Part shown: in pieces, positions 487 to 12,801 of the stretch
Layout: the number at the start of each line of letters is the position of its first letter
How positions within the stretch are numbered: position 1 is the first letter of the stretch
Source: Pseudomonadota bacterium
GTDB taxonomy: Bacteria; Myxococcota_A; UBA9042
Assembly: GCA_005777155.1 (NCBI GenBank)
Contig: SXNM01000103.1
Span: forward strand, 1 to 40,083
DNA: 40,083 nt
Direction: 5' to 3'
Program-made: the position numbers and the translations under genes
The notes under the pieces: generated by a model
What the model saw: the letters and a program-made list of their open reading frames with translations, nothing else
Told to the model about the DNA's origin: nothing
The model's database searches: none

Positions 487-618
487 GCCTGACCGTGGTG
501 AGAGGCGACGTGCCTACGCCGCCGCCGAGAGCGAATTCAGCGAGGAAGCTGGCGTCGACCTGCGAGATCGTTATGATTGACTGTGGCTGTGTGTGCAAAC
601 ACGGCGGGGGGACGGCAG

Positions 619-3324
619 ATGATGAAAGCTCGCACTTTGAATTTCGTCGAAGGGACCCACACTCGCCCGCCCACAGTCGACCTGGTCCGCGGCGTGCGGG
701 CGCCGTCGCGGGCGAAGCCAGCCGCCATGGCCTTTGCGCTGGCGATCGCGTCGGCGTGCCTGAGCCTAGGATGTGGCAATGTCAAAGTGGTCGAAGACCC
801 CATCGACGACGCGACGGCGCAAGACAGCGGCGGCGGCGATGTGACCGGCGGTGGTGACGCGACCGGTGGTGACGCGACCGGTGGTGACGCGACCGGTGGT
901 GACGCGACCGGCGGCGACGCTGGGGGCAGCGACGGCGGTGGCAAGCTACAGTGCATCACCGACTACGACTGCAATGGCGTGCTCCTGGGCACGACGCCCT
1001 GCCGCCTGCCGATGTGCCAGGCTGGCACCTGCGCCTTGGTCGACACCGCAAAGGGCACCGCCTGCCAAAACCCTGGCGAATTGGTCGGCGAATGTGCGAC
1101 CTGCGGAGACGCCGGGCAGTGCGTCAAGGCGCCGGTTGATGACGGCAACCCATGCACCAAGGACTACTGCGACCAAGGCAAGGCCGTCGTGCACGAGCCA
1201 GTGACCGACCTGACGATCGCCTGCGAGGACGACGACGTCTGCTACGACAACGGCACCTGCGTCGAGGGCGAGTGCGCTGGCAAGCCCATCGACTGTAGCG
1301 ATGGCGTCGCCTGCACCTTCGACACCTGCGAGAAGGGGAGCGGCTGCAAGCACACGGCTGACGTCGGCGGCTGTGACGACGGCGATCCCTGCACCAAGGA
1401 CGCTTGTGACCTGAAGGCCGGATGCAAGGCCTCTGGCACCAACACAGGCGCCAACTGCGACGACGGGAACTCCTGCACCGAAAAGGACGCTTGCCTCGCC
1501 GACGGCAGCTGCGTCGGCACCTCGACCTGCGCCTGCAAGCTCGACACCGACTGCAAGAACGCCAACCTATGCCTCGGCACCATGGCGTGCGAGAAAGGGA
1601 TCTGCGTCACCAAGGGCACGGGCCCGGTCGCCTGTGACCAGAAGGGCAACACCGCCTGCGCCAAGCTGGAGTGCCAGCCCGCGACAGGCAAGTGCGAGCC
1701 GACGGCGGTCTCTGATGGCCTCGCCTGCGACGACGGCGACGCCTGTACGACCGAAAGCGGCTGCAAGTCGGGCGTCTGTGCCGGCAGCAAGCCGCCGCCA
1801 TGCAACGACAGCAACGACTGCACCAACGACAGCTGCGATCCGAAGAGCGGCTGCAAGCAGGTCGCCACCACGAAGCCCTGCCTCGATGACAACGCCTGCA
1901 CCGAAAAGGATAGCTGCGCCAATGGCGCCTGCGTCGGCGTGACCAAGGCCTGCGACGACGGGCTCGCCTGCACGGTCGACAGCTGCAACAAGACCACTGG
2001 CGCGTGCAGCAACACGCCGCAGGACGCGACCTGTGACGACAAGAACCTCTGCACCAAAGACAGCTGTGTGGCCGGCAAGGGCTGCAGCCTGACCGCCGAC
2101 GACAGCGCCAAGTGCACCGACGGCGACGAGTGCACCAACGACGCCTGCAAGGGCGGCGTCTGCGCCAGCGTCAACACCTGCCCGTGCAAGGCCGACACGG
2201 CGGCAAAGGACTGCGACGACAAGAACCCTTGCACCACCGACAGCTGCGATACCGCCGCCAAGAAGTGCGTCAACAGCCCCAACGGCGCCGATGGCAAGCC
2301 GTGCGACACCGGCGACAAGTGCCAGCAGCCCGGCAGCGGCGCCTGCGGCGGCGGGACGTGCAAGTCCAGCAACACGCACCTCGATTGCTCCAGCAAGTCG
2401 GGCCCCTGCGCCACCGGCACCTGCGTCGCGGCCACCGGCGCCTGTGTCGCCGCGCCCAAGGCCGACGGACTTGGCTGCAACGCCGATAGCTCAGCCTGCA
2501 CGGCCAACGACGCCTGCAAGTCGGGCACTTGCACGCCCGGCGTCGCGCTGTATTGCAACGACAGCAACCCATGCACCGCCGACAGCTGCAACAAGACGTC
2601 GGGCTGCGTCAGCATCGGGACCACCAGCAACCAACCCTGCGACGACGGCGACGCCTGCTCGGCTGGGGACACCTGTCAGACGGGCAAGTGCACCCCTGGC
2701 AAGCAGATTCCGTGCAGCGACGGCAGCAACTGCACCAACGATTACTGCAAGAACGGCGCATGCGTCGCCGAGCCCATCGCCAACTGCTGCGTAAAGACCT
2801 TTTTGCAGCACAAGTTCGACGTCAAGGCGCCGACCGACTGGGTCCTGACGCAGAGCAACGACCTCGTGCGCTGGCGCTTCCGCCTCGACACCGGCTTCGC
2901 CTACAGCGGGGCGGGCTCCCTGCACTACGGTTCGCTGGAGATGAAGGACATCATAGCCAAAGACGCAGCCGGCAGCCTGGTGCAAAACTCGGGGTCGGCC
3001 TACATGCCGCAGTTCCCGACAGGGACCGCCAGCAGCGTGACGCTGCGCTTCTGGCTGCTCTGGGACGCCGAGGTCAATGACGGCTACGACAAGCTGTCGG
3101 TCGTCACCAAGGTCGCCGGTAGCGACCTGCCGGCGATTCAGACCCACTGGACGTTGCCGAAGTTCCAGCTCGGCCCGAACTCGTGGCACCAGGTCACCGT
3201 CAAGATTCCGATTGGCAAAGGCACTCAAATCGGCTTCCTCTTTGACACCGTCGACGGCGCTGCCAACGAAAACTGGAAGGGCGTGTTCATCGACGACGTC
3301 GTGGTGGAAGGCCCTTGCGACTGA
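619..3324 (+). CDS. Cys-rich repeat lipoprotein with C-terminal MAM/jelly-roll-like domain
   Basis: Track ORF 577..3324. ATG 619/622 follows GGGGGGA; ATG 727 is an alternative start. Hydrophobic stretch plus lipobox (AFALAIASACLSLG-C), GGDAT linker, many CDDGxxCTxDxC repeats (Dicty_CTDC-like). C-terminal ~180 aa are nearly Cys-free and end FDTVDG..NENWKGVFIDDVVV. Confidence 0.85.
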   Translation: MMKARTLNFVEGTHTRPPTVDLVRGVRAPSRAKPAAMAFALAIASACLSLGCGNVKVVEDPIDDATAQDSGGGDVTGGGDATGGDATGGDATGGDATGGDAGGSDGGGKLQCITDYDCNGVLLGTTPCRLPMCQAGTCALVDTAKGTACQNPGELVGECATCGDAGQCVKAPVDDGNPCTKDYCDQGKAVVHEPVTDLTIACEDDDVCYDNGTCVEGECAGKPIDCSDGVACTFDTCEKGSGCKHTADVGGCDDGDPCTKDACDLKAGCKASGTNTGANCDDGNSCTEKDACLADGSCVGTSTCACKLDTDCKNANLCLGTMACEKGICVTKGTGPVACDQKGNTACAKLECQPATGKCEPTAVSDGLACDDGDACTTESGCKSGVCAGSKPPPCNDSNDCTNDSCDPKSGCKQVATTKPCLDDNACTEKDSCANGACVGVTKACDDGLACTVDSCNKTTGACSNTPQDATCDDKNLCTKDSCVAGKGCSLTADDSAKCTDGDECTNDACKGGVCASVNTCPCKADTAAKDCDDKNPCTTDSCDTAAKKCVNSPNGADGKPCDTGDKCQQPGSGACGGGTCKSSNTHLDCSSKSGPCATGTCVAATGACVAAPKADGLGCNADSSACTANDACKSGTCTPGVALYCNDSNPCTADSCNKTSGCVSIGTTSNQPCDDGDACSAGDTCQTGKCTPGKQIPCSDGSNCTNDYCKNGACVAEPIANCCVKTFLQHKFDVKAPTDWVLTQSNDLVRWRFRLDTGFAYSGAGSLHYGSLEMKDIIAKDAAGSLVQNSGSAYMPQFPTGTASSVTLRFWLLWDAEVNDGYDKLSVVTKVAGSDLPAIQTHWTLPKFQLGPNSWHQVTVKIPIGKGTQIGFLFDTVDGAANENWKGVFIDDVVVEGPCD
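850..909 (+). repeat. 15-bp coding tandem repeat (GGTGGTGACGCGACC x4), encodes GGDAT linker
   Basis: Four exact copies at 850, 865, 880 and 895, with degenerate flanking copies. In frame. Confidence 0.95.
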
Positions 3325-4844
3325 GGACGATCCCAGACCGCACCGGGCTGATGCGCGACGAGACCGGGACGCTCACCCGTCGCGGCCGCACAGAGCTGTT
3401 GCTCTGCTATCCCAACAGCTACCGCGTCGCCGGCGCCAGCCTCGGCCTGCAGGTGATGTACCGCCTGCTCAACGCCCGCGACGCCATCAGCTGCCAGCGC
3501 GCGGTGCTGCCGGAAGACGCGCTCAGCGACCCGAACGCCAAGATCCGCAGCCTCGAGCACGGGATGGCACCCGACCAGTTCGACGCCATCCTCTTCTCCA
3601 TCGCCTATGAGCTCGATATCCCCCACCTGCCGATGATGCTGGAGCGCGGCGGGGTGGCGCCTCTGCGCAGCGACCGCGCCGCCGACGCGCCGCCGGTGAT
3701 CGCCGGGGGGCCGCTGACGCAGAGCAACGTGCTGCCTTTGGCGCCCTTCGTCGACGCCGTGGTGTTGGGCGAGGCCGAGGCCGTGGTGCCTACGCTGCTC
3801 GACGCGCTGCAGGATCGCCCCGACCGCGCCACGCTGGTTGCCCGCCTTGACGGCGTTCCGGGCATCTGGCTGCCGGAGCGCCACGGCGACGCGGTGCCCG
3901 ACGTGCTGGTGGCGCGCGGCGACCACATCCCCGCCGTCGGCCAATGGCGCAGTCCGCACGCCGAGTTCGCCGACATGGCCTTGCTGGAGTCGAGCCGCGG
4001 CTGCCCGCGCTATTGCAAGTTCTGCGTCGTGCGGGCGCCGGCCTCGCCCATGCGTAGCCCAGAGCTGGAGCGCGTGCTGGCGGCGCTCGACCTGCCGCTC
4101 TACGCCAACGCGCCGCGCATCGGCCTGGTCGGCGCTGCGGTGAGCGACTGGCCGCCGCTCGTCGACGCGCTCCGCGCCATCGTCGAGCGCGGCAAGGGGG
4201 TCGGTGTGAGCAGTCTGCGCGCCGATCGCCTCGACGAGACCCTGGTCGGGCTGCTCGCCGCCGGTGGCTATCGCACGCTGACCGTGGCCTCCGACGCAGC
4301 CAGCCAGCGCCTGCGCGGCAAGATGATGAAGGGGCTCCGCGAGCGACACTTCCTCGCCGCCGCCGACCTGGCGCGCGGCCTTGGGCTCAAGGGCCTCAAG
4401 CTGTACGTGATCTTGGGCCTGCCAGACGAGACCGAGGCCGACATCGACGAGCTCATCGACTTCTGCCAGCGGCTGCGGGCAAAGGCGCCGCTGACGCTGA
4501 CGCTGTCGCCCTTCGTGCCGAAGCTCCACACGCCGCTGGCCGAGGCGCCTTTCGAGCCCATCGCCAGCCAGCAGGTCAAGCTCGAGCGGGTGCGGCGGGT
4601 GCTTGGCAAGGCGCAGGTCGAGGTCCGCTTCGACGCCCCGCGCTGGGCTTGGGTCGAGTATCGGCTAAGCCAAGGCGGCGCCGAGTCCGGGCTGGCGGCG
4701 TGGCGTGCGCTGCGCGACGGCGGCGGATGGAAGGACTGGCAGCGCGCTTTCGCCGAGATCGACGCCGGAGGCCAGGGCGGCGAGCGCGCGGCCGTCGTCG
4801 CGGCGCAGCGACATGGCCTCTGGGCGCTGGCGGGGGCCCGCTGA
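3315..4844 (+). CDS. Radical SAM protein with N-terminal B12-binding-like domain (uncharacterised, TIGR03960-like)
   Basis: CxxxCxxC motif in ESSRGCPRYCKFC. N-terminal CYPNSYRVAGASLG, FSIAYELD, VIAGGP, VVLGEAE; also SSLRAD, KLYVILGLPDET and PFVPKLHTP. Start is TTG 3315 (overlapping upstream stop) or ATG 3351. Confidence 0.9.
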   Translation: MRLRTIPDRTGLMRDETGTLTRRGRTELLLCYPNSYRVAGASLGLQVMYRLLNARDAISCQRAVLPEDALSDPNAKIRSLEHGMAPDQFDAILFSIAYELDIPHLPMMLERGGVAPLRSDRAADAPPVIAGGPLTQSNVLPLAPFVDAVVLGEAEAVVPTLLDALQDRPDRATLVARLDGVPGIWLPERHGDAVPDVLVARGDHIPAVGQWRSPHAEFADMALLESSRGCPRYCKFCVVRAPASPMRSPELERVLAALDLPLYANAPRIGLVGAAVSDWPPLVDALRAIVERGKGVGVSSLRADRLDETLVGLLAAGGYRTLTVASDAASQRLRGKMMKGLRERHFLAAADLARGLGLKGLKLYVILGLPDETEADIDELIDFCQRLRAKAPLTLTLSPFVPKLHTPLAEAPFEPIASQQVKLERVRRVLGKAQVEVRFDAPRWAWVEYRLSQGGAESGLAAWRALRDGGGWKDWQRAFAEIDAGGQGGERAAVVAAQRHGLWALAGAR

Positions 4845-4910
4845 CCCTGGCCGGCCCTGGGCCCCGTGCTGCGCGATCATAGATCAATCACGCTCTTCCC
4901 GAGGGGTTCC

Positions 4911-4940
4911 TTGACGCTGCCGGTGCCGCACCCCTACGCT
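4911..4940 (+). promoter_or_regulatory. Putative sigma70-type promoter for the 4991 operon
   Basis: TTGACG (4911-4916), 18-nt spacer, TACGCT (4935-4940), 50 nt upstream of ATG 4991 in an intergenic gap. Confidence 0.5.
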
Positions 4941-4990
4941 AGTGAGGCTGCGGACGCGGGCCGCCGCGGCGAGCGGGACGGCGCGCCATC

Positions 4991-7900
4991 ATGACACATA
5001 GGCTACTTCAATTGCCGCGCTCCGTGGCGCGCACGTGCATGGTTCGATGGTCCAGGTGGGCCTCGATCTGGTCGGTGACGTGGTTGGCGACCTCCGCACC
5101 CCTGCTAGCGCTCGCCGCGCCGCCGCAGATCGCCAACGCCTCGCTCGAGGTGGCCGACGCCGCAGATCCGACCCTGCCCGCGGGCTGGTTCGCCGACGCC
5201 TGGGGCAACCTCTTGTATGGGCACGCGTGGTTGCTGAGCGGCGCCTTCGAGGGAAGTCGCGCGATGCGGGTGGCGGTGTCGACGGTGAGCGGCGAAGGCG
5301 ACGCGCGCTGGATGTCGGCGTCGTTCCCGGTCGCTGCGCAGGCAGGGCAGACCTACAGCCTGCACCACCACTACCGATCCGACGTCTCGACCGCGGTCTG
5401 GGCGCAGGCGCAGTCTGTCGGCGGCGCGCAGTCGCAGTGGATCTTGGTCGGCAACGTGGCGGCCAGCGCGACGTGGACGGCGCACGCGGCGAACGTCAAC
5501 CTGCCGAGTTGGGCCGACACGCTGCGCGTCTGCCACGTGCTCGGCCAGCCCGGCTTCCTGGAGACAGACGCCTGGTCCTGGCAAGAGAAGCTACCCGACC
5601 CGCCGCCGCCGATTCAGCCCACCGATCCGCCGCTGGCGCCGGCCTCGCCGAACGCTGGCAACGTGCTGCCGAACCCGTCGTTCGAGGACACCAGCAGCTA
5701 CAGTAGCTCGACGCCCAAGTATTGGTCCTTCGTCGTCTGGGGCGCCGCCAGCGCCACCACCAGCGTCTGGAGCCAGGGGCCCGCCCATCAGGGAGCGTTC
5801 GCGCTGCGCATGAGCCAGCCGACGTTGCCGAAAGATGGCGACGCCAAGTGGTGGAGTGATGCCATTCCACTGCTGAATTTTGGCGGAAAGCTGCGCCTGA
5901 CCTGCTACTACCAGGGCACCGCTGGCGTCTCGCTCTTGCTGCGAGCCGAAGATAAGGCCGGCCAGGGCGGTCAGACGCAGTGGTACAGCGTGGCGTCGGG
6001 GCCGGCGTGGGCGGAGTGGCGCGTGCTGTCGGGCCTCATCGAGCTGCCCAGCTTCACCCATCAGGTGCGCGTCGGGCTGCGGATCGACGGCACCGGCGAC
6101 GCGGCGGTCGACGACTGCAGCTTCGCCGCCGAGGTGGAGACACCGGCCGTGGCGGTGGCGCTTGGCAGCGACAACGTCCTCGTCAACCCCTCGTTTGAGG
6201 TGGCGCACCCCTGGGATCCGGGCCGCCCGGCGAGCTGGGACGGGGTGGTCTACGGCACGGCGCAGGGCAAGGCGACATGGCTAACCGGCGGCTTCGACGG
6301 CGATCGCGCCGTTCGTGTCGAGGTCTTCGTCAAGACCGAGGGCGAAGGAGACGGCCGCTGGCAAAGCGCGCCGATCGCGCTCTTGCCGAAGTCGGCAAAC
6401 CCCTGGCGGGTCTCCATCAGCGATCGCTACCGCACCAACGCCCCGACACGCCTGCGCGCCCGCGTCCGCTCGGCCGACGGCAAGCAGGCGCAGTGGCTCA
6501 CAGGCCCGGAGCTGCCGACCTCGCCCGCCGCTTGGTCGCAGGCGCAGTGGGTCGTCGATCTGCCGGACTGGGCGGCGACGCTGGAGGTGATGCACTCCCT
6601 GGAGGTCGCAGGTCAGCTCGACATCGACGCCGTCGTCGTCGTCGCCGGGCCGCCGGACCCACCGCCGGCGCCGCAAGATCCGCCCCTGTCGCCGGCCTCG
6701 TTGCTCGGCTTCAACGTGCTGCCCAACCCGTCCTTTGAGGTGGCCAGCGTCGGCGATGCCAAGCGGCCCGCCTACTGGCGCATGGAGGCCTGGGACGCCG
6801 CGCTCGGTTTCGCCACCGCCGTCTGGCTCGACGCCGGCGCCAAGCACGGCCAGCGCGCGCTGCGCCTCGCCCAGGCTGCCCTGCCGGCCAGCGGCGACGC
6901 TAAGTGGTGGAGCGATCCAGTGCCCGTGACCGATGTGGCGACCGACCTCCGCGTCACCTGCCACTACCAGGGCACGGCGGGCGCCACGCTGCTTTTGCTG
7001 GCCACCAACGGCAAGGCGCAGGCTGAGGCGCAGGCCAAGTGGTACACCGTCGCCGCCGGACCGGCCTGGCCGTCTTGGCGCCCGCTCTCGGGCACGCTGA
7101 CGGGCGCCGCCCAGCTGCCGGCGTGGACCAGCCACGTCCGCGTCGGCATGCGCATCGAGGGGACCGGCGTCATCGACATCGACAGCTGCAGCGTCGGCGT
7201 CGCGGCGCCGCCGACGCTGCCGCCGCCGCAGGAGCTCGGCGACATCAACCTCGTCGCCAACCCCTCGCTCGAGCTCGCCGATCCGTGGGATCCCAGCATG
7301 CCAGCCAGCTGGGTCGGCTTCACCACCGGCCAGGTCATCGGCAGCGCCAGCTGGCAGCAGGTGGGCGCTGACGGTGGGCGCAGCGGCCGAATCGTCATCC
7401 TGAGCATCGACCCGCAGCTCGGCCCCGAGGGTGACGGCCGCTGGCGCAGCGCCCCCATCGCCCTCAAGGCGCCGGGGCGGGTGGCGCTCCGCACGCAGTA
7501 CCGCTCCAACATCGCCTCGCGGTTGCGGATTCGCGCCAGGTCTGCCGACGGCAAGCTGGTCGAGTGGCGTAGCTCGAAGCCCCTTCCCCCTGCGACCGGC
7601 GCCTGGGCAGAGGCAGAGCTGGTCGTCGACCTGCCGGCCTTTACCGCCACAATCGAGGTAGAGCAGTCCATTGACGCGGTCGGCTACCTGGACATCGACG
7701 ACGTGCGCGTGGTGCGTGGCCCGCCCGGGCCGATCGAGCCCGAGCCAGAGACCGGCGCCCCCAGCGAACCCGAGCCCGCTCCCTCGATCTTGGGCGAGGC
7801 CAACGCCGTGCCGAACCCCTCGATGGAGCAGGCGAGCACGCTGCAGCCGAGCCTGCCCTGGTGGTGGGGCGGTGTCGCCAGCGGCGCGATGAGCGGCACC

Positions 7901-10810
7901 TGGACCTGGGTGCAGCCCGGCATCGACGGCGACCGCTGCCTCAAGTTGGTCGCCAGCCGCGAAGGCGAGCAGCCGGGGAGCGCCAGCATCGCGAGTCGTG
8001 GCTTCCGGCTCGCCAAGTCGGCGCCGTGGGCGAAGGCGCGCGCGATGGTGCGCTCGACGATGCCGGTCGAGCTCTGGCTGGTCGTGCACTCCGAGCAGCT
8101 CGGGGCCGACTGGCGCAAGGTCGCGGAGGGCGGCGGCCAGGGCACCTGGGGACCGCTGGAGGGAGTGGTCCCGGTTGGCGAATTCGCGCACGCCCTGCAG
8201 GTCGTGGTGCTGACGCGCGCAAAGGGAGCCCTCGAGGTGGACGCCGTGTCGCTGACCGCGGCGGCGACCCCGACTGGCATGGAGCCTGGCGCAACTGCCG
8301 GCGGCAACACGCCGCTCGCCGGTTTCGACAGCGGGCCGGTCGGGCCGACGACGACGGCTGATCCGCCGGTGCCAGAGACCGGCGGCTGCAGCGCCCTCCC
8401 CGGCGCTGGGGCGTCGCCGCTGCCCGGCCAAGCGCTGGCGATTCTGGCCCTCGCCGTGGTTGGGCTGGCGCTGCGTCGGCGCGGTGGGCAGGGCAGCGGC
8501 GCGGCGACGCGGCGGACGGTGGCGATGGCGGCGCTCGGGCTGTTCGCCGCGGGCGGCTGCACCGATGACCCCATTCGCGTCGATCCGTGGCATGCCCGCG
8601 CAACGGCGCAGGGTTTTGAGATCTCGCGCGACGGCAAAACCTTCCACAAGTTCTGGCCCATCGGCGTGAACTTTGGGCTCGCCATCCCCGGCACCGATCC
8701 CGGCGAGATGGAGGCGACCGGCACCCAGATTCGCCGTTGGCTCCAGGTGACGGCCTACTCTGGGGCCAACACCATCCGGACCTATACCGTGCAGTCGCCG
8801 GTGTTTTATCGCGAGCTGCGTGAGTACAACCTCGCCAACCCGAGCAATCCGCTCTTCTTGATGCAGGGCGTCTGGATCGATGAGCCGCCGCTGACCGACC
8901 CCGACTACTTCTCGGCAGCGGCGAACGCCTGGGTCGACGACGAGATCGCCAAGGTGGTCGCGGTGATCCACGGCGACATCACCATCCCGCCCGCCAGCAA
9001 GCTGGAGCCGCTCAACTTTGGCCGAGCCAACGGCACCTTCGAGGACGACGTGTCGCCGTGGCTCATCGGCTGGCTCTTCGGCCGCGAGATGGAGCCCTAC
9101 ACGCTAGAGTCGACGCTGGCCCTCCACCCGGAGGCGCCGACCAGCCACAAGGGCTCGCTGCTCTCGATAGACAACGGCAGCGCGATCACGGCCTGGATCG
9201 TCAGCAAGATGGACGACATCCTCCGCTTCGAGCGTGACAAGTACGGCCAGCAGCACCCGATCGGCTTCTCGAACTGGCCGACCCTCGACCCGCTGCTGCA
9301 CCCAACCGAGCCGAAGCTGCCGATCTCGGTCGAGGACACCTTCCAGGTCGATCTAGAGCCCATCGAGACCGCCGCCTCTTATACCGCCGGCGTCTTCATG
9401 AGCTACCACGCCTACCCGTACTACCCGGACTTCATCTTCCACGAGGCGGCGTACCAGAGCTTCGCCGACAGCCAGGGCAAATTCTCCTACATCGGCTACC
9501 TCGCGGCGCTGCGCAAACACCACGCCAGCCACGCGCTGATCATCGCCGAGGTCGGCCACCCCTCCAGCCTCGGCAACGGCCACCAGACGCCGACCGGCCA
9601 AGATCACGGCGACCTCGACGATCAAGAGCAAGGCCCGGCCGTGCTGCGCTCGCTCGCTGCCATCCACCAAGCCGGCCTCGATGGCGCCTATGTGTTTAGC
9701 ATCATTGATGAGTGGTTCAAGCGAGCCTGGGTCGTCGAGCGCGTGGAGTACCCGAGCGACAGGCGCCGCTTCTGGCACAACGTCATGAACCCGGAGCAGA
9801 ACTTCGGCCTCGTCGCGCTGCGGGCCGGCGCGCCGGGCAAGCGCATCGTGCTCGACGGCAAGGACGGCGACTGGGGGCCGCCTCAGGCCGTGGCAGGCCC
9901 CGCCCAGGTCGCGCCCGCCGGCGACGGCGCCGATGCCCAGCGGCGGCTGCGCGACGTGACGCTCAGCTCCGACGCGGCCTACCTGCACGTCCGCGTGCGC
10001 CTGCAGCCTCCACCGGGCGGCGTCTTCGACTGGCAGCGCCTGGACGTCGTCGTCGCCTTCGACACCATCGACCCGGAGCGCGGCGATGGCCGGCTCGATC
10101 CCGCTGGCAAGGTCGAGGTGGGCCGGCGAGTAGAGCACGTGCTGCGCATCGAGTCGCCCGAGGTTGTGCAGCTCTACGTCGATAAGCCCTACGATCTCTA
10201 CGGCATCTGGCACGGATTCCGTGAGCCCTGGCAGCTTTACCGCAGCGTCCGCAACGACGCCGGTGAATTCCGGCCGGTGCGCACCATCACCAACGCCTAC
10301 GACGCCATCGGGCCAGACGGCAACGTCACGACGCTCGGCGGGGTGCAGGTCCAGGAGACCGGCCGCTTCCGCGTCGGCATCGAAGCGCTGACGAGCCACG
10401 CCTTGGTCGCCATTGACCCGGCTGGCGGCGTCATCGAGATCCGCGTGCCCTGGAACTTGTTGCACTTCACCGATCCGTCGGCCGCCCAGATCGTCGACGA
10501 CGACGGCAGCTTGGGGCCGCGCCGAGCGAGCTCCGCCGCCACCCCGGCCGTCGCCGTCGCCGCCGTCGTCCTGGGCGGCAAAGACGAACAGGAGTCGGCG
10601 CTCGTCGACTCGGTGCCAGCCGCAACCGCGACCGCGACCGGCCACGCCGTGCCGGCCAAGGGCTGGGCGGTGCTGCCGATCGCGACGTGGAGCGCCACCC
10701 CGGCCTATCACGAGCAGACCAAGCCCATCGTCCAGGCCATGCAGGCGGGCCTCGGCGGAATCTTGCCGCCGACTATCGCTTGGCCGTCCACGGGCGGAGG
10801 TGCGCCATGA
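4991..10810 (+). CDS. Secreted multidomain protein: six CBM4/9-like domains, internal MYXO-CTERM-like signal, lipoprotein-like signal, clan GH-A-like glycoside hydrolase plus beta-sandwich
   Basis: Signal peptide ending LALA-APP (start 4991 or ATG 5039). Six NxxxNxS[FLM]E...GDx[KR]W domains with Pro linkers. GGC-TM-RRR at aa 1131-1164; AAGG-C at aa 1190. Then GVNFGLAIPG, GANTIRTYT, LMQGVW, GREMEP, NWPTLDPL, SYHAYPYYPDF, IAEVG, DEWFKR, EQNFGL and IEIRVPWNLL motifs, typical of a TIM-barrel family often labelled 'family 2 glycosyl transferase'. Confidence 0.88.
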   Translation: MTHRLLQLPRSVARTCMVRWSRWASIWSVTWLATSAPLLALAAPPQIANASLEVADAADPTLPAGWFADAWGNLLYGHAWLLSGAFEGSRAMRVAVSTVSGEGDARWMSASFPVAAQAGQTYSLHHHYRSDVSTAVWAQAQSVGGAQSQWILVGNVAASATWTAHAANVNLPSWADTLRVCHVLGQPGFLETDAWSWQEKLPDPPPPIQPTDPPLAPASPNAGNVLPNPSFEDTSSYSSSTPKYWSFVVWGAASATTSVWSQGPAHQGAFALRMSQPTLPKDGDAKWWSDAIPLLNFGGKLRLTCYYQGTAGVSLLLRAEDKAGQGGQTQWYSVASGPAWAEWRVLSGLIELPSFTHQVRVGLRIDGTGDAAVDDCSFAAEVETPAVAVALGSDNVLVNPSFEVAHPWDPGRPASWDGVVYGTAQGKATWLTGGFDGDRAVRVEVFVKTEGEGDGRWQSAPIALLPKSANPWRVSISDRYRTNAPTRLRARVRSADGKQAQWLTGPELPTSPAAWSQAQWVVDLPDWAATLEVMHSLEVAGQLDIDAVVVVAGPPDPPPAPQDPPLSPASLLGFNVLPNPSFEVASVGDAKRPAYWRMEAWDAALGFATAVWLDAGAKHGQRALRLAQAALPASGDAKWWSDPVPVTDVATDLRVTCHYQGTAGATLLLLATNGKAQAEAQAKWYTVAAGPAWPSWRPLSGTLTGAAQLPAWTSHVRVGMRIEGTGVIDIDSCSVGVAAPPTLPPPQELGDINLVANPSLELADPWDPSMPASWVGFTTGQVIGSASWQQVGADGGRSGRIVILSIDPQLGPEGDGRWRSAPIALKAPGRVALRTQYRSNIASRLRIRARSADGKLVEWRSSKPLPPATGAWAEAELVVDLPAFTATIEVEQSIDAVGYLDIDDVRVVRGPPGPIEPEPETGAPSEPEPAPSILGEANAVPNPSMEQASTLQPSLPWWWGGVASGAMSGTWTWVQPGIDGDRCLKLVASREGEQPGSASIASRGFRLAKSAPWAKARAMVRSTMPVELWLVVHSEQLGADWRKVAEGGGQGTWGPLEGVVPVGEFAHALQVVVLTRAKGALEVDAVSLTAAATPTGMEPGATAGGNTPLAGFDSGPVGPTTTADPPVPETGGCSALPGAGASPLPGQALAILALAVVGLALRRRGGQGSGAATRRTVAMAALGLFAAGGCTDDPIRVDPWHARATAQGFEISRDGKTFHKFWPIGVNFGLAIPGTDPGEMEATGTQIRRWLQVTAYSGANTIRTYTVQSPVFYRELREYNLANPSNPLFLMQGVWIDEPPLTDPDYFSAAANAWVDDEIAKVVAVIHGDITIPPASKLEPLNFGRANGTFEDDVSPWLIGWLFGREMEPYTLESTLALHPEAPTSHKGSLLSIDNGSAITAWIVSKMDDILRFERDKYGQQHPIGFSNWPTLDPLLHPTEPKLPISVEDTFQVDLEPIETAASYTAGVFMSYHAYPYYPDFIFHEAAYQSFADSQGKFSYIGYLAALRKHHASHALIIAEVGHPSSLGNGHQTPTGQDHGDLDDQEQGPAVLRSLAAIHQAGLDGAYVFSIIDEWFKRAWVVERVEYPSDRRRFWHNVMNPEQNFGLVALRAGAPGKRIVLDGKDGDWGPPQAVAGPAQVAPAGDGADAQRRLRDVTLSSDAAYLHVRVRLQPPPGGVFDWQRLDVVVAFDTIDPERGDGRLDPAGKVEVGRRVEHVLRIESPEVVQLYVDKPYDLYGIWHGFREPWQLYRSVRNDAGEFRPVRTITNAYDAIGPDGNVTTLGGVQVQETGRFRVGIEALTSHALVAIDPAGGVIEIRVPWNLLHFTDPSAAQIVDDDGSLGPRRASSAATPAVAVAAVVLGGKDEQESALVDSVPAATATATGHAVPAKGWAVLPIATWSATPAYHEQTKPIVQAMQAGLGGILPPTIAWPSTGGGAP
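8381..8560 (+). other. Internal tandem sorting signals: MYXO-CTERM-like motif followed by lipoprotein-type signal
   Basis: Translates GGCSALPGAGASPLPGQALAILALAVVGLALRRR (8381-8482), GGQGSGAA, then TRRTVAMAALGLFAAGG-C (Cys codon 8558). No stop between them. Confidence 0.75.
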
Positions 10811-12708
10811 ACCTCGGCTCAGGTGCGATCTCGCGACATGCCGGGCGCGGCCACGGCGTGTGGGCTCGGTCGAGCGCCAGCCGGCTAGCGCTGCTCTCCC
10901 TGCTGCTGCCAGGGCAAGCGCTGGCGCAGAACCTGCTCGGCAATGGCGCCGTCGAGACGCCGAACGCCGACGACCCGACGAAGCCGGCCCTGTGGAGCGC
11001 AGCCGTCTGGGGCACCGCCATTGAGGCGACGACGAGCTGGGCACCGGTGTCGCCGCCCAACGGCCGCTCGCTACGGATCGAGGTCACCTCCATCGTCGGC
11101 GACGGCGACGCGCTTTGGCGCAGCGAGCCGATCGCGGTCGCCGCCGACGGCGCCGTGCGGCTGACCGCCCGTTGCATCGGCGACGCTCCAGCTCGCCTGC
11201 TGCTTGAGGCGCGCAACGGCGGCGGCAAGGCGTCGTGGCTCGGCGCGGCGACGTTGCCCAAGACCTTGGTCTGGCAAGTGACCACCGGCACCGTGCAGCT
11301 GCCGGCTGGCACCAACAGCGTCCGCGTCGCTTTCGCGCTCCAGGCCACAGGCGTGGTGTCGTGCGACGATTTTGAGCTGACCAACCTGCCACCGCCGCCG
11401 CTGGCAGTCGACGGCAGCGCCGAGATCTTGGTCAACGGCGGCTTCGAGGCCGGCCAGCCGCTCGGACCCACGCCGGGCTGGAGCTTCGAAGCCACGCCCG
11501 GCGCGGTCGGCCAGGGGCAGGTCATGGCTGGGGGCGCGGCCGAAGGTGAGGCAGCAGAGGGCAAGCAATTCGCACGCATCCGGGTGGACAGCCTGAAGGG
11601 CAGCGTGGACGTCAAGTGGTGGAGCGACCCCATCCGCGTGGTGCCTGGCAAGCCGTCGTGGCTGCTCCACCTCAAGTGGCGCTCCCTGGCGCGAGCCCAT
11701 CTCTTCCTCTGGGAGTCCCGCATCGACGGCACCGGTGGTTTTCGCCTCCTGCGCCGGCTGCGCCCGGCCTTGCACCCGGACTTTCGGACGGCGCCGCCCT
11801 GGGAGACGGTGCAGGTCGGCTTCTCACTCGCCCCTGACGTGGTCGCTATACACGTCGCCGTCTTGCTCTGGCAGCCGGGCGTAGTCGACCTCGATGACCT
11901 CCGCTGCGCCCGCGCCGACGCCAGCGGCGATGCGAAGGGCGAACTCCGCGTCTCGTTCGCCATCGACTCTCTGACGGGCACTGTCGACGATGTGCTGGCG
12001 TTGTTCGACCTCGCAAAGGTGCGTGGCAGCATCTACCTGCCCTCGGCGCGCATCGAGGCCGAGGGCGCCACGGCGCTTGAGAAGCTGCGCAAGGCCGAGC
12101 TGCGCGGCGTCGAGCTCGGCATCTACGGAGAGGTGCCCTCAGCCTGGCTCAGCGCCGACAGCGCCGCCCGCCGGCAGACCGTCATTCGCGCCTTCGCCCG
12201 CTTGCGCGACGCTGGCCTGCATCCCAGCGGGTTCGCGCCGCCAGACGGCGTCTACGACGAGGCGGTGTCCGACGCGATCGACAGCCGCGAGGGCTATGTC
12301 CGCACGCTCGGCGATGGCGTCAACTATCCGCCGGTCGACTACTTGTCCTTGCAGGTCCGCAATGTCGACGCCTCGACGACTGACCTCGACGTCCTGCGCT
12401 GGGCGCAAGAGGCGCGGCGCCACAAGGGCTGGCTCATCTTGCGCTACAGCGGCATCGGCCCCGCCGGCGGCATCGACCTCGGGCGGATGTTGCGCGACAT
12501 CGAGGCGGTCCAGGCCGAAGGCGCGATCATCGCCCCAGTCGGCGAGGCGCTCGGTGCCTGGCAGACGCCCGTGTTGCCGGCGCCAGAGGCTGAGGGCGGC
12601 TGCAGCGCGCAGCGGACCAGCGGCGGTGGCGGCGGCTTGCCGCTCTTGGCACTGTTGGTCGCTGTCGCGCTGGGCTGGCAGCGCGCCCGCTCGCGCGGCT
12701 TCGCGTAG
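10807..12708 (+). CDS. Secreted protein: two CBM-like domains, degenerate polysaccharide deacetylase (NodB/CE4-like) domain, C-terminal MYXO-CTERM
   Basis: ATG 10807 overlaps upstream TGA (ATGA), with GGAGG at 10796-10800. Signal ...LLLPGQALA-Q. NLLGNGAVE and ILVNGGFE domains. RVSFAIDS / GVELGIYG / GFAPPDG / GYVRT / KGWLIL align to CE4 motif positions. Tail EGGCSAQ...LPLLALLVAVALGWQRARSR. Confidence 0.82.
   Translation: MNLGSGAISRHAGRGHGVWARSSASRLALLSLLLPGQALAQNLLGNGAVETPNADDPTKPALWSAAVWGTAIEATTSWAPVSPPNGRSLRIEVTSIVGDGDALWRSEPIAVAADGAVRLTARCIGDAPARLLLEARNGGGKASWLGAATLPKTLVWQVTTGTVQLPAGTNSVRVAFALQATGVVSCDDFELTNLPPPPLAVDGSAEILVNGGFEAGQPLGPTPGWSFEATPGAVGQGQVMAGGAAEGEAAEGKQFARIRVDSLKGSVDVKWWSDPIRVVPGKPSWLLHLKWRSLARAHLFLWESRIDGTGGFRLLRRLRPALHPDFRTAPPWETVQVGFSLAPDVVAIHVAVLLWQPGVVDLDDLRCARADASGDAKGELRVSFAIDSLTGTVDDVLALFDLAKVRGSIYLPSARIEAEGATALEKLRKAELRGVELGIYGEVPSAWLSADSAARRQTVIRAFARLRDAGLHPSGFAPPDGVYDEAVSDAIDSREGYVRTLGDGVNYPPVDYLSLQVRNVDASTTDLDVLRWAQEARRHKGWLILRYSGIGPAGGIDLGRMLRDIEAVQAEGAIIAPVGEALGAWQTPVLPAPEAEGGCSAQRTSGGGGGLPLLALLVAVALGWQRARSRGFA
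12595..12708 (+). other. C-terminal MYXO-CTERM-like sorting signal
   Basis: GGC, Gly/Ser linker, hydrophobic helix, Arg cluster, stop: the layout of the TIGR03901 motif. Confidence 0.75.
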
Positions 12709-12801
12709 GTCGGAGCTCGGCAGCAGATGTGCGCGGCTAGAGAAGCTCGGTGTACTCGCCGCAGCACAGGTCGCGGAGGGGTCGAAAAGAGGGGGGTTCC
12801 G

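What the first reader, a model, noticed from the sequence alone, without database searches (positions are those of the whole stretch)
8342..8600. Apparent bacterial polyprotein: internal MYXO-CTERM signal followed directly by a second lipoprotein-type signal
Seen: in the 1939-aa ORF a complete motif of a type normally found at the C-terminus (GGC at aa 1131-1133, linker, hydrophobic helix, RRR) lies mid-protein. About 8 residues later comes TRRTVAMAALGLFAAGG-C (Cys1190) and then a ~750-aa hydrolase. The neighbouring gene carries the same first motif at its true C-terminus, which serves as an internal control. Established: MYXO-CTERM (TIGR03901) is a cleaved surface-sorting tag, and lipoboxes are processed by Lgt/Lsp. 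Inference: the two helices form a membrane hairpin with the Arg cluster in the cytoplasm. One translation product could then be cut by a myxosortase and by signal peptidase II into two separately anchored proteins (CBM array and glycoside hydrolase) at 1:1 stoichiometry. TRRTV also resembles a twin-arginine motif. The AGG-C lipobox is non-canonical, and internal MYXO-CTERM motifs may have precedent in other myxobacterial fusions.
Basis: partly seen in the sequence, partly recalled or inferred. Interest (0 to 1): 0.85.

Follow-up and report, generated by a model that had tools for sequence, protein, structure and literature searches.

The report
Two surface proteins fused through their sorting signals
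One long myxobacterial gene joins a sugar-binding surface protein, still carrying its C-terminal sorting tag, to a lipoprotein enzyme that still carries its own export signal, so one chain is probably cut into two separately anchored proteins; related fusions have been reported before.

Summary
ORF 4991-10810 (1939 aa) has no stop. It carries a MYXO-CTERM-like tag (GGC 1131-1133, helix, RRR 1162-1164), an 8-residue loop and a lipoprotein-type signal ending at Cys1190.

It is not an assembly error. Contigs from two samples match the junction exactly. A second species of the genus (G002, dS about 0.6) keeps the fusion, with an in-frame 8-codon indel.

Each half has stand-alone relatives:
- A CBM-like array in G001 ends in a true C-terminal tag plus stop.
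- All ten stand-alone homologues of the enzyme that I read start with lipoprotein signals.

The enzyme half folds as a clan GH-A-like TIM barrel, and the modules fold like CBM4/22.

The architecture recurs:
- 7 of 60 MYXO-CTERM matches in four relatives are internal, and all 7 are followed by a second signal.
- One such fusion is open in 22 of 22 genomes of the family.

Cutting into two proteins is inferred, not shown. Internal MYXO-CTERM (MXAN_5598) and a cleaved archaeal fusion (HVO_0405) are already published. The Tat idea is not supported. Verdict: a real new variant of a known kind, of moderate interest.

The parts
4991..10810 (+). Fused open reading frame, 1939 aa. A public gene call starts at M17 (nt 5039), giving 1923 aa.
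   Evidence: P0004. No stop; same architecture in G002.
5039..5116 (+). Probable N-terminal Sec signal peptide (MVRWSRW..LLALA | AP).
   Evidence: Read by eye; no predictor was run. G002 has an equivalent stretch (P0005).
5123..8293 (+). Six CBM-like beta-sandwich modules of about 164 aa each: 5123-5614, 5660-6151, 6173-6664, 6713-7204, 7247-7738, 7802-8293.
   Evidence: One search gives the boundaries. The model of module 3 has pLDDT 94.4. Foldseek top matches include CBM22, CBM4-2, CBM16 and CBM61, with TM 0.58-0.68. Pfam CBM_4_9 matches 1 of 27 modules.
8381..8482 (+). Internal MYXO-CTERM-like tripartite tag: GGCSA (Cys1133), spacer, helix about 1146-1161, RRR 1162-1164.
   Evidence: Local profile 15.5 bits. 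Homologous to the true C-terminal tag of G001:C7 and to the internal tag of G017:C65, which scores 25.2 bits with TIGR03901. Not reported by TIGR03901 here.
8483..8506 (+). Short Gly-rich loop (GGQGSGAA), inferred to be cytoplasmic together with the flanking Arg residues. G002 carries 8 extra codons just after it.
8507..8560 (+). Internal lipoprotein-type signal: TRR n-region, hydrophobic core VAMAALGLFAA, and A-G-G-C with Cys1190.
   Evidence: It aligns with the N-terminal lipoprotein signals of 10 of the 10 stand-alone homologues read. Its features are kept in G002 (SRR..AAAC).
8558..10807 (+). 750-aa enzyme-like half: a (beta/alpha)8 barrel (about residues 30-420) plus a beta-rich C-terminal domain. 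It belongs to an unnamed family with no Pfam model.
   Evidence: AF2 pLDDT 91.8. Foldseek top matches are GH157, GH2, GH164 and GH5. Glu177 and Glu331 are invariant, counted from Cys1190 = 1. 1684 homologues among 8000 scored candidates. No Pfam or NCBIfam hit.
10807..12708 (+). Downstream gene, coupled by an ATGA overlap, with GGAGG 6 nt upstream of its ATG. It has two CBM-like modules, a weakly deacetylase-like part and a true C-terminal MYXO-CTERM-like tail (12595-12690).
   Evidence: 11.4 bits; HfsH E 0.044. In genus g7 its homologue is fused behind the array.
3315..4844 (+). Upstream B12-binding radical SAM gene. It is context only; a 146-nt spacer separates it from the fused ORF.
   Evidence: Same order in G002, 96.7% identical.

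Best explanation
The ORF is a natural in-frame fusion of two formerly separate genes.
- One encoded a secreted array of six CBM-like modules ending in a MYXO-CTERM tag.
- The other encoded a lipoprotein with a GH-A-like TIM-barrel enzyme domain.

**Shown.**
- The fusion is real and has been kept in two species.
- Both sorting signals keep their defining residues.
- Whenever the array is translated, the ribosome must run on into the enzyme, because there is no stop.

**Inferred pathway.**
1. The N-terminal signal sends the array through Sec.
2. The tag helix stops transfer, leaving the Arg-rich loop in the cytoplasm.
3. The second hydrophobic stretch restarts export, forming a hairpin.
4. Lgt and LspA lipidate Cys1190 and cut in front of it, releasing the enzyme as a lipoprotein.
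5. An Lgt-like step and an MrtX-like CPBP protease lipidate and cut the tag near Cys1133, so the array can go to the cell surface.
6. A hairpin peptide of about 55 aa is left behind.

Either cut alone would separate the two halves. Such junctions are tolerated because both ends are removed anyway, which would explain why they recur in this family.
For: **Real sequence.**
- A contig from a second sample (X2, 963 nt) covers 7900-8614 with 0 differences. The likely source sample (X1) covers all of 7900-9100.
- G002 has the same 1990-aa open frame.
- Between G000 and G002, dS is about 0.6. dN/dS is 0.16 for the array, 0.12 for the enzyme and 0.52 for the 75-codon junction. The only junction indel is 8 codons, in frame.

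**Key residues kept in G002.** Both Cys residues, the RRR, the RR and both hydrophobic cores are kept, although the junction is only 63% identical.

**Origin of the halves.**
- The G001:C7 array ends in tag plus stop.
- 10 of the 10 stand-alone enzyme homologues read begin with lipoprotein signals.
- Among the 1066-3394-aa proteins of a 5.8-billion-protein database, only 2 carry this array-enzyme fusion. Three other long hits at about 30% identity were not read at their N-terminal parts.

**Recurrence.**
- 7 of 60 TIGR03901 matches in G001, G002, G008 and G017 are internal, and all 7 are followed by a signal-like stretch. Two of these are lipoprotein-type.
- The other 53 tails are 25 aa or shorter, and none is a long out-of-frame tail.
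- All 13 internal cases have a hydrophobic 10-aa window of 2.3 or more after the Arg cluster. Only 7.1% of 5939 control RRR sites reach 2.0.
- The same array is fused to a different signal-bearing partner in genus g7.

**Persistence.**
- The C348-type fusion is open across the junction in 22 of 22 genomes of the family. In most genomes of the other families searched, the two halves match as separate adjacent stretches. I read two of those loci (G046, G049) and found separate ORFs in different frames.
- Two fusions in G000 (C261, C347) have no ATG, GTG or TTG ahead of the second hydrophobic core.

**Machinery.**
- Lgt is present in G000.
- LspA is present in G002.
- An MrtX-like CPBP match is present in G000 and G002.

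**Published support for the principle.**
- MrtX cleaves MYXO-CTERM, and processing of an internal tag has been proposed (PMC11980579, passages).
- An internal archaeal tag is cleaved in vivo (PMC7157517, passages).
Against: - There are no protein or RNA data: no RNA run is listed, and only contigs could be laid, not raw reads.
- TIGR03901 does not report the internal tag. The local profile gives only 15.5 bits against a noise level of about 12.
- The MrtX model scores 100 bits, below its 180-bit cut-off, and gave no match in G001, which is 93% complete.
- LspA was not found in G000, which is 59% complete.
- The lipobox has Ala at -3 (A-G-G-C), which is off the textbook consensus. That consensus is recalled, not taken from a call.
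- A possible start codon is kept at one position (ATG 8525 in G000, TTG in G002), so separate initiation is not excluded.
- Other fused orthologues also have in-frame GTGs near the second signal.
- This particular fusion is known from only two species of one genus.
- The junction dN/dS of 0.5 rests on 75 codons.
- The 13 cases are not independent; they represent about 8 architectures.
Confidence: 0.6

Rival explanations
1. A fused but uncleaved, or only half-cleaved, protein. The internal tag has decayed into a plain transmembrane helix. The product is then one of two things:
- one inner-membrane protein with a hairpin anchor and two periplasmic domains; or
- a chain cut only by LspA, which leaves the array held in the inner membrane by the hairpin.
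For: - The tag scores below the TIGR03901 cut-off.
- The MrtX match is below its cut-off.
- The junction evolves faster than the domains, with dN/dS 0.52.
- MYXO-CTERM is defined as lying at the C-terminus (preprint 10.1101/2023.06.07.544157, passage).
Against: - The invariant Cys, the helix and the Arg cluster are kept in G002 and in all 13 internal cases.
- Several internal tags score among the best in their genomes: C348 at 32.5 bits and G001:C12 at 26 bits.
- The true C-terminal tag of the neighbouring gene is also below the cut-off (11.4 bits), so a low score is not a sign of decay in this locus.
- Internal tripartite tags are cleaved in Haloferax (PMC7157517).
Confidence: 0.22
2. Two proteins arise mainly by separate translation. 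The enzyme is started at ATG 8525 or GTG 8519, as it was before the upstream stop was lost. The read-through fusion is a tolerated by-product.
For: - In-frame start codons lie at 8519 and 8525.
- G002 has TTG at the position of ATG 8525.
- Some other fusions keep a Met or GTG at the head of the second signal, for example G017:C39 and G017:C66.
Against: - Starting at 8525 leaves an 11-residue uncharged signal. The stand-alone homologues have signals roughly 17 to 40 residues long, most of them with Arg or Lys.
- GTG 8519 is GTC in G002.
- There is no GGAGG ahead of either codon, whereas the next gene has one 6 nt before its ATG. This is a weak argument, because the ORF's own start lacks one too.
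- C261 and C347 have no start codon ahead of the hydrophobic core.
- With no stop, the fusion is made in any case.
Confidence: 0.12
3. An artefact or a recently broken gene: a lost stop or an indel introduced by metagenome assembly, or a young pseudogene-like read-through.
For: - G000 is a 59%-complete genome in 467 contigs.
- Only contigs, not raw reads, could be laid.
Against: - The junction is identical in contigs from two samples.
- The same fusion occurs in a different species on a 356-kb contig.
- At dS about 0.6, both halves are under purifying selection and the junction indel is in frame.
Confidence: 0.03

Closest known systems
MXAN_5598 of Myxococcus xanthus (internal MYXO-CTERM; Guo, Haft and Wall, mBio 2025, PMC11980579; passages read)
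   Same: [quoted passage not shown]
   Different: - There the partner is an outer-membrane beta-barrel with an OmpA domain, not a lipoprotein enzyme.
- No second signal peptide is mentioned in the passages I read.
- The paper calls such cases rare. Here, 7 of 60 tags in four relatives are internal.
- Table S1 of that paper could not be seen, because supplements are closed. It may list more cases.
HVO_0405 of Haloferax volcanii (archaeosortase ArtA substrate; PMC7157517, passages read; the original 2017 paper, PMC5350275, is not held)
   Same: - It is a strain-specific fusion of two formerly independent genes.
- It has a centrally located tripartite sorting tag.
- Cleavage at the tag in vivo has been shown.
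   Different: - It is archaeal, with a PGF-CTERM-type tag and ArtA rather than MYXO-CTERM and MrtX.
- It is a Tat substrate, according to the title of the 2017 paper in the reference list.
- No lipoprotein signal behind the tag is described in the passages read.
TraA/TraB of M. xanthus (PMC11980579, passage)
   Same: A MYXO-CTERM surface protein is encoded directly ahead of an outer-membrane partner. This is the same gene order as the C348-type and C261-type fusions seen here.
   Different: These are two ORFs that overlap, not one ORF. They are unrelated to the CBM array and to the enzyme.
Polyproteins of enveloped RNA viruses cut by host signal peptidase at internal signal sequences (general knowledge; only titles and abstract openings were seen in the listing)
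   Same: Alternating stop-transfer and restart signals thread one chain back and forth through the membrane. Membrane proteases then cut it into separate proteins.
   Different: That is the eukaryotic ER and viral. There is no lipidation of the new ends. The resemblance is in principle only.
Cytochrome b/c1 precursor FbcH of Bradyrhizobium japonicum (recalled from memory; my search listed no paper holding 'fbcH')
   Same: As I recall, a bacterial membrane polyprotein is split at an internal signal-like sequence.
   Different: It is a respiratory complex and involves no sorting tag and no lipoprotein signal.

Membership tests
MYXO-CTERM (TIGR03901) | Signature with an invariant Cys at the start of the domain | tested here: met
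   GGCSA, with Cys1133. Kept in G002.
MYXO-CTERM (TIGR03901) | Hydrophobic transmembrane stretch followed by a cluster of 2-5 basic residues | tested here: met
   KD windows above 1.8 at 1143-1163, then RRR 1162-1164. The criteria are taken from the preprint passage.
MYXO-CTERM (TIGR03901) | [quoted passage not shown] | tested here: not met
   About 775 residues follow the motif.
MYXO-CTERM (TIGR03901) | Score at or above the model's cut-off of 20 bits | tested here: not met
   No NCBIfam hit at E <= 0.1, and not among the 24 matches at E <= 10 in the genome. The local profile gives 15.5 bits. The homologous internal tag in G017 scores 25.2 bits.
MYXO-CTERM (TIGR03901) | Several tagged proteins and a myxosortase (MrtX, NF040593) in the same genome | tested here: inconclusive
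   5 matches are over the cut-off in G000. The MrtX model scores 100 bits against a 180-bit cut-off and covers positions 132-231 only.
MYXO-CTERM (TIGR03901) | Cleavage and lipid anchoring of the tagged protein | not testable with these tools
   This needs expression and protein chemistry.
Bacterial lipoprotein signal (Lgt/LspA substrate) | Positive n-region, short hydrophobic core, Cys at +1 | tested here: met
   TRR, VAMAALGLFAA, Cys1190. G002 has SRR..AAAC. It is homologous to the signals of 10 of the 10 stand-alone homologues read.
Bacterial lipoprotein signal (Lgt/LspA substrate) | Canonical lipobox [LVI][ASTVI][GAS]C (consensus recalled, not from a call) | tested here: not met
   A-G-G-C, with Ala at -3. 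By my reading, about half of the stand-alone homologues also lack L, V or I at -3.
Bacterial lipoprotein signal (Lgt/LspA substrate) | Position at the N-terminus of the translation product | tested here: not met
   It begins at residue 1173 of the ORF.
Bacterial lipoprotein signal (Lgt/LspA substrate) | Lgt and LspA encoded in the genome | tested here: inconclusive
   Lgt scores 162 bits in G000. LspA was not found in G000, which is 59% complete. It is present in G001, G002, G008 and G017.
Clan GH-A glycoside hydrolases | (beta/alpha)8 barrel fold | tested here: met
   The model has pLDDT 91.8. Top Foldseek matches are GH157, GH2, GH164 and GH5, at E 1e-13 to 1e-7 and 9-13% identity.
Clan GH-A glycoside hydrolases | Two catalytic Glu residues, after strand 4 and on strand 7 (recalled definition) | tested here: inconclusive
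   Glu177 and Glu331 are invariant in 48 sequences. They lie just after strand 169-174 and within strand 326-332. The strands were not numbered against a solved structure.
Clan GH-A glycoside hydrolases | Sequence membership of a described family | tested here: not met
   No Pfam or NCBIfam hit. No meaningful match in a PDB sequence search: the only row is a polymerase at E 0.27.
CBM4/9/22-like carbohydrate-binding modules | Beta-sandwich fold like that of known CBMs | tested here: met
   Module 3 has pLDDT 94.4. It matches CBM22, CBM4-2, CBM16 and CBM61 with TM 0.58-0.68.
CBM4/9/22-like carbohydrate-binding modules | Match to a CBM sequence model | tested here: inconclusive
   PF02018 matches 1 of 27 modules at E 8e-6 and gives no hit on the whole protein.
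Fusion proteins with a central sorting tag (HVO_0405 / MXAN_5598 type) | Two formerly independent genes joined, with the tripartite tag of the first kept between them | tested here: met
   Stand-alone forms of both halves exist in relatives. The fused form occurs in G000 and G002.
Fusion proteins with a central sorting tag (HVO_0405 / MXAN_5598 type) | Cleavage at the central tag | not testable with these tools
   Shown for HVO_0405 (PMC7157517) and only proposed for MXAN_5598 (PMC11980579).

The most novel reading that the evidence does not exclude
In this family of Myxococcota, joining genes through a 'C-terminal sorting tag plus N-terminal signal peptide' junction is a regular, selected way of encoding pairs of envelope proteins.
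- One chain is threaded out, in and out again through the inner membrane. It is then cut at both signals.
- This gives two separately lipid-anchored or membrane-inserted partners in fixed 1:1 amounts. It would be a bacterial counterpart of viral membrane polyproteins.
- The array-enzyme ORF would be the first case in which both new ends are lipidated: a C-terminal lipid on the array and an N-terminal lipid on the enzyme.
Probability: 0.45. Interest if true: 0.7.

Novelty: new variant of a known kind. Interest (0 to 1): 0.55.

Why it matters
**If the chain is cut as proposed.**
- One gene would yield a surface lectin-like array and a glycan-cleaving lipoprotein in equal amounts. The neighbouring gene adds a third CBM-bearing protein.
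- That would show Sec, Lgt/LspA and myxosortase acting together on one precursor.

**Wider point.**
- Sorting signals make gene fusions harmless, because both signals are removed anyway.
- So such junctions can form repeatedly: at least 8 architectures in 5 genomes.
- They can also last: one is open in 22 of 22 genomes of the family.

**Practical consequences.**
- Annotation pipelines call these ORFs single giant proteins and miss the internal tag.
- Counts of MYXO-CTERM proteins and of lipoproteins are therefore too low.

**Experimental use.** The large size difference between precursor and products would make this ORF a convenient reporter for myxosortase activity, as HVO_0405 has been for archaeosortase.

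Tried and rejected
**Twin-arginine export.**
- TRRTV (SRRIV in G002) matches the motif only partly.
- Of the 10 stand-alone homologues read, 1 (P0036) has RR in its signal.
- I rejected this as the main route. It is not excluded.

**Searches on the whole protein.**
- Pfam and NCBIfam gave nothing.
- A PDB sequence search with the enzyme half gave nothing useful: one row at E 0.27.

**Promoters, terminators and Shine-Dalgarno sites.**
- The promoter and terminator scan of 4700-12900 found 0 promoter-like sites. It found 2 terminator-like sites, no more than in shuffled sequence.
- There is no GGAGG before 8519 or 8525, but the ORF's own start lacks one too. The argument is therefore weak.

**RNA evidence.** No RNA holder is listed, so nothing can be said about expression.

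**Reads.** Only Logan contigs could be laid. Rare variants would not show.

**A discrepancy.**
- One search lists an open frame of 1467 aa for G008:C110.
- My own stop-to-stop scan gives 808 aa, and the public protein is 776 aa (P0012). I treated this gene as stand-alone.
- The longer open frames at G041 (1187 aa) and G022 (1201 aa) were not examined.

**Limits of the surveys.**
- My first regular-expression scan for internal tags was very noisy, with 56 'internal' hits that were mostly spurious frames. I replaced it with a profile search.
- That profile was built only from C-terminal tails, so the count of 3 internal among 17 hits of 15 bits or more is biased towards C-terminal ones.
- C261 was found only by the regular expression.
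- In the survey of relatives I fetched 60 of the 75 rows. These were the rows at or near the cut-off. The 15 weaker rows were not fetched.

**Literature.**
- 'fbcH' with 'polyprotein' and 'internal signal': no listed paper holds fbcH.
- 'internal signal peptide' with 'lipoprotein', 'polyprotein' and 'bacterial': 0 papers.
- 'MYXO-CTERM' or 'myxosortase': 26 papers, 20 listed. Of the two I opened, only PMC11980579 mentions internal motifs.
- Supplements are closed, so Table S1 of that paper was not seen.

Full report
**1.
- The window has one open frame, 4991-10810 (+), of 1939 aa with no stop.
- GGC lies at residues 1131-1133 (nt 8381).
- The only strongly hydrophobic 15-residue windows in the middle of the protein lie at 1143-1163.
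- RRR lies at 1162-1164.
- After eight residues (GGQGSGAA) comes TRRTVAMAALGLFAAGG, then Cys1190 (nt 8558-8560), then 750 more residues.
- GTG 8519 and ATG 8525 are in frame.
- The next gene really starts at ATG 10807. That ATG overlaps the TGA of the long ORF (ATGA) and has GGAGG 6 nt upstream.
- The next gene ends in a tripartite Cys/helix/Arg tail followed by a stop. That tail scores 11.4 bits with TIGR03901, below the 20-bit cut-off.

**2. It is not an assembly error.**
- Logan contigs of two samples from one study were laid on 7900-9100.
- The likely source sample covers the whole stretch with 0 differences.
- A second sample has a 963-nt contig over 7900-8614, also with 0 differences. 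These are contigs, so rare variants could be hidden.
- More tellingly, G002 is a different species of the same genus. Its record is titled 'MAG: Myxococcales bacterium'.
- G002 has the same gene order (Cys-rich repeat protein, radical SAM, long ORF, tagged downstream gene) and a 1990-aa open frame of the same build.
- Between the two species dS is about 0.6.

| Segment | dN/dS |
|---|---|
| Array | 0.16 |
| Enzyme half | 0.12 |
| 75-codon junction | 0.52 |

- The junction is only 63% identical.
- It still keeps both Cys residues, the RRR, the RR and both hydrophobic cores.
- Its one indel is 8 codons, in frame.
- Public gene calls treat both ORFs as single proteins of 1923 and 1947 aa. Among proteins of 1066-3394 aa in a 5.8-billion-protein database, these are the only two near-identical full-length hits. 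Three other long hits at about 30% identity were not read at their N-terminal parts.

**3. What the halves are.** Neither Pfam nor NCBIfam names anything in the ORF.

*The N-terminal part.*
- It has six modules of about 164 residues.
- A model of module 3, built from an alignment of 27 modules, has pLDDT 94.4.
- It resembles CBM22, CBM4-2, CBM16 and CBM61 with TM 0.58-0.68.
- Pfam CBM_4_9 matches 1 of the 27 modules.

*The C-terminal 750 residues.*
- They belong to a large unnamed family: 1684 hits among 8000 scored candidates, mostly 750-900 aa and labelled hypothetical.
- The model has pLDDT 91.8.
- It shows a (beta/alpha)8 barrel plus a beta-rich domain.
- It is closest to GH157, GH2, GH164 and GH5 enzymes at 9-13% identity.
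- Glu177 and Glu331, counted from Cys1190, are invariant in 48 sequences. They sit where clan GH-A enzymes have their catalytic pair. That placement rests on my recollection of the clan's definition.

So 'CBM array' and 'glycoside hydrolase' are supported at fold level. Activity is unknown.

**4. Where the fusion came from.** The enzyme has stand-alone relatives in 25 further genomes: 27 of the 61 searched, counting G000, have a match, and only G000 and G002 have the long frame.
- I read ten stand-alone homologues. All ten begin with a lipoprotein-type signal ending in ..AAC..TGC..AGC or similar. The internal TRR..AGG-C stretch is the homologue of those signals.
- The array has a stand-alone relative in G001, of the same genus, on another contig. 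That relative ends in a tag (..SGCSAG.., helix, RRR) followed by 10 residues and a stop.
- The internal motif is therefore the homologue of a true C-terminal tag.
- The ORF is two formerly separate genes joined with both sorting signals intact.
- The fusion predates the split of G000 and G002.

**5. The architecture recurs.** This is the main new evidence for function.
- *Other cases in G000.* G000 holds at least three more open frames in which a MYXO-CTERM-like tag runs straight into a second signal:
  - C348: FN3-like part, tag scoring 32.5 bits (the best TIGR03901 hit in the genome), a signal, then a beta-barrel-like part.
  - C261: tag, signal, then a beta-barrel-like part.
  - C347: metalloprotease, tag, signal, then a second metalloprotease with its own terminal tag.
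- *Another partner for the same array.* In genus g7 (G008, G017) the homologue of this very array is fused through its tag to a different partner. That partner is a signal-bearing homologue of the window's downstream gene.
- *Survey of relatives.* I looked at 60 TIGR03901 matches at or near the cut-off in G001, G002, G008 and G017.
  - 53 are followed by 25 residues or fewer and a stop.
  - 7 continue, and all 7 run into a hydrophobic signal-like stretch. Two of these are lipoprotein-type.
  - None has a long out-of-frame tail.
- *Hydrophobicity control.* All 13 internal cases have a 10-residue hydrophobic window of 2.3 or more within 35 residues of the Arg cluster. Only 7.1% of 5939 control RRR sites reach 2.0. 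The 13 cases represent about 8 architectures and are not independent.
- *C348-type persistence.* This fusion is open across its junction in 22 of 22 other genomes of the family, and in three genomes of two other families.
  - In most genomes of the remaining families the two halves match as separate adjacent stretches.
  - I read two of those loci (G046, G049), and there the halves are separate ORFs in different frames.
- *Other persistent fusions.* The metalloprotease fusion is kept in at least four relatives. The C261 type is kept in two and is split in G049.
- Junctions of this kind therefore arise repeatedly and can persist over family-level divergence. That is hard to reconcile with their being harmful accidents.

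**6. How it most likely works.**

*Shown.*
- There is one reading frame.
- There is an N-terminal signal-like start.
- Both internal signals keep their features.
- With no stop, every ribosome that makes the array must go on into the enzyme.

*Inferred.*
1. Sec exports the array.
2. The tag helix stops transfer.
3. The Arg-rich loop stays in the cytoplasm.
4. The second hydrophobic core restarts export as the second leg of a hairpin.
5. Lgt and LspA process Cys1190.
6. An Lgt-like step and an MrtX-like CPBP protease process the tag near Cys1133.
7. The array then follows the MYXO-CTERM route to the surface, and the enzyme becomes a lipoprotein.

Either cut alone separates the halves.

*Machinery found.*
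- Lgt is present in G000 at 162 bits.
- LspA is present in four relatives but was not found in the 59%-complete G000.
- A CPBP protease matches the catalytic half of the MrtX model at 100 bits, below the 180-bit cut-off. It is present in G000, G002, G008 and G017 but was not found in G001.

*Published basis.*
- MrtX cleaves MYXO-CTERM and is sufficient for this in E. coli.
- An Lgt-like lipidation step is proposed (PMC11980579, abstract and passages).

**7. Rivals.**
- *(a) No cut at the tag, so a hairpin-anchored protein.*
  - For: the sub-threshold scores.
  - Against: conservation of the Cys and Arg residues in all cases; several internal tags score high; and the neighbour's true terminal tag is also sub-threshold.
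- *(b) Separate initiation at 8525 or 8519.*
  - For: G002 keeps TTG at the 8525 position.
  - Against: that start gives an 11-residue uncharged signal, unlike any stand-alone homologue.
  - Against: 8519 is GTC in G002.
  - Against: two other fusions in G000 have no start codon ahead of the hydrophobic core.
  - Caveat: other orthologues do have in-frame GTGs there, so this is not excluded as an addition.
- *(c) Artefact or young pseudogene.* Section 2 argues against this.
- *The Tat reading.* It is not supported: 1 of the 10 homologues read has RR.

**8. Comparison with what is known.**
- Guo, Haft and Wall (PMC11980579; passages read) state that ORFs with internal MYXO-CTERM motifs occur 'in rare cases'.
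  - They describe MXAN_5598: an adhesin, the tag, then a beta-barrel with an OmpA domain.
  - They regard it as a likely fusion of two genes and propose that its N-terminal part is processed and surface-anchored.
- HVO_0405 of Haloferax volcanii is a fusion of two formerly independent genes with a central archaeosortase site. It is cleaved in vivo (PMC7157517, passages).
- So the idea of a central sorting tag in a fused protein is in print, with experimental proof in archaea.
- What I did not find in the papers searched is any of the following:
  - a second signal directly behind the tag treated as part of the design;
  - a lipoprotein signal in that place, which would give two lipidated ends;
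  - the frequency seen here;
  - the family-wide persistence of one such fusion.
- Table S1 of the mBio paper could not be opened and may list more cases.
- Membership:
  - The motif has the anatomy of MYXO-CTERM but fails on position and on model score.
  - The second signal has the anatomy of a lipoprotein signal but is internal, and its lipobox is relaxed.

**9. Verdict.**
- It is a new variant of a known kind rather than a new principle.
- Interest is moderate (0.55).
- The ORF would make a good experimental reporter for myxosortase and for dual lipidation.

Noticed in passing
G000 contigs C348:1518-3338 (+), C261:16711-18324 (+), C347:4530-6506 (+): Three further open frames in the same genome have an internal MYXO-CTERM-like tag followed in frame by a second signal:
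- C348: FN3-like part, then a beta-barrel-like part.
- C261: a domain of about 330 aa, then a beta-barrel-like part.
- C347: two matrixin-like metalloproteases in tandem.

C261 and C347 have no ATG, GTG or TTG ahead of the second hydrophobic core.
   Followed up: partly
Relatives G001-G022 and others; loci L097-L101: The C348-type fusion (tagged FN3-like protein plus beta-barrel) is open across its junction in 22 of 22 other genomes of the family, and in G039, G047 and G050. In most genomes of the other families searched, the two halves match as separate adjacent stretches. I read two of those loci (G046, G049), and there they are separate ORFs in different frames. The gene order resembles TraA/TraB.
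   Followed up: partly
L023 (G008:C225) and L022 (G017:C65): In genus g7 the homologue of this CBM-like array is fused, through its MYXO-CTERM tag and a second signal, to a homologue of the window's downstream gene rather than to the enzyme. This is an independent fusion of the same array.
   Followed up: partly
window 10807-10810: The downstream gene starts with an ATG that overlaps the TGA stop of the long ORF (ATGA). A GGAGG lies 6 nt upstream, which suggests translational coupling. The ORF list gives a longer frame starting at 10687.
   Followed up: yes
window 577-3324, 12727-19848, 21382-26640, 26628-31334 (+): Four very large Cys-rich proteins carry many Dicty_CTDC-type repeats (Pfam E 1e-28 to 1e-55). 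They make up nearly half of the window.
   Followed up: no
window 3315-4844 (+): A B12-binding radical SAM gene gives a partial TIGR03960-like match. It is 96.7% identical to its G002 counterpart, whereas its neighbours are 80-89% identical. It sits between surface-protein genes.
   Followed up: no
G001:C1:177991-179343, G002:C1:277792-279209, G008:C124:3102-4432, G017:C23:89627-90961: In four relatives an lspA gene lies next to a second, sub-threshold lgt-like gene (85-105 bits against a 119-bit cut-off), separate from the main lgt. It could be a candidate for the Lgt-like step proposed for MYXO-CTERM.
   Followed up: no
window 8558-10807 and proteins P0009-P0128: The enzyme half belongs to a large family without any Pfam model: 1684 hits among 8000 scored candidates. 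The family is found in Myxococcota, in Gemmatimonadaceae records where it is fused to TPR repeats, and in KSB1 and Pontibacter records where it carries T9SS sorting domains. It looks like an undescribed GH-A-like family.
   Followed up: partly
G000:C315:6032-8901 (-) and the equivalent places in G009, G014, G015 and others: A paralogue of the enzyme (about 36% identity) is followed directly by a gene with a CBM-like module. The pairing of enzyme and CBM protein is therefore conserved beyond this locus.
   Followed up: no
G008:C110:1748-4060: The genome search lists an open frame of 1467 aa here. My own stop-to-stop scan gives 808 aa, and the public protein is 776 aa. The discrepancy is unexplained.
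   Followed up: partly
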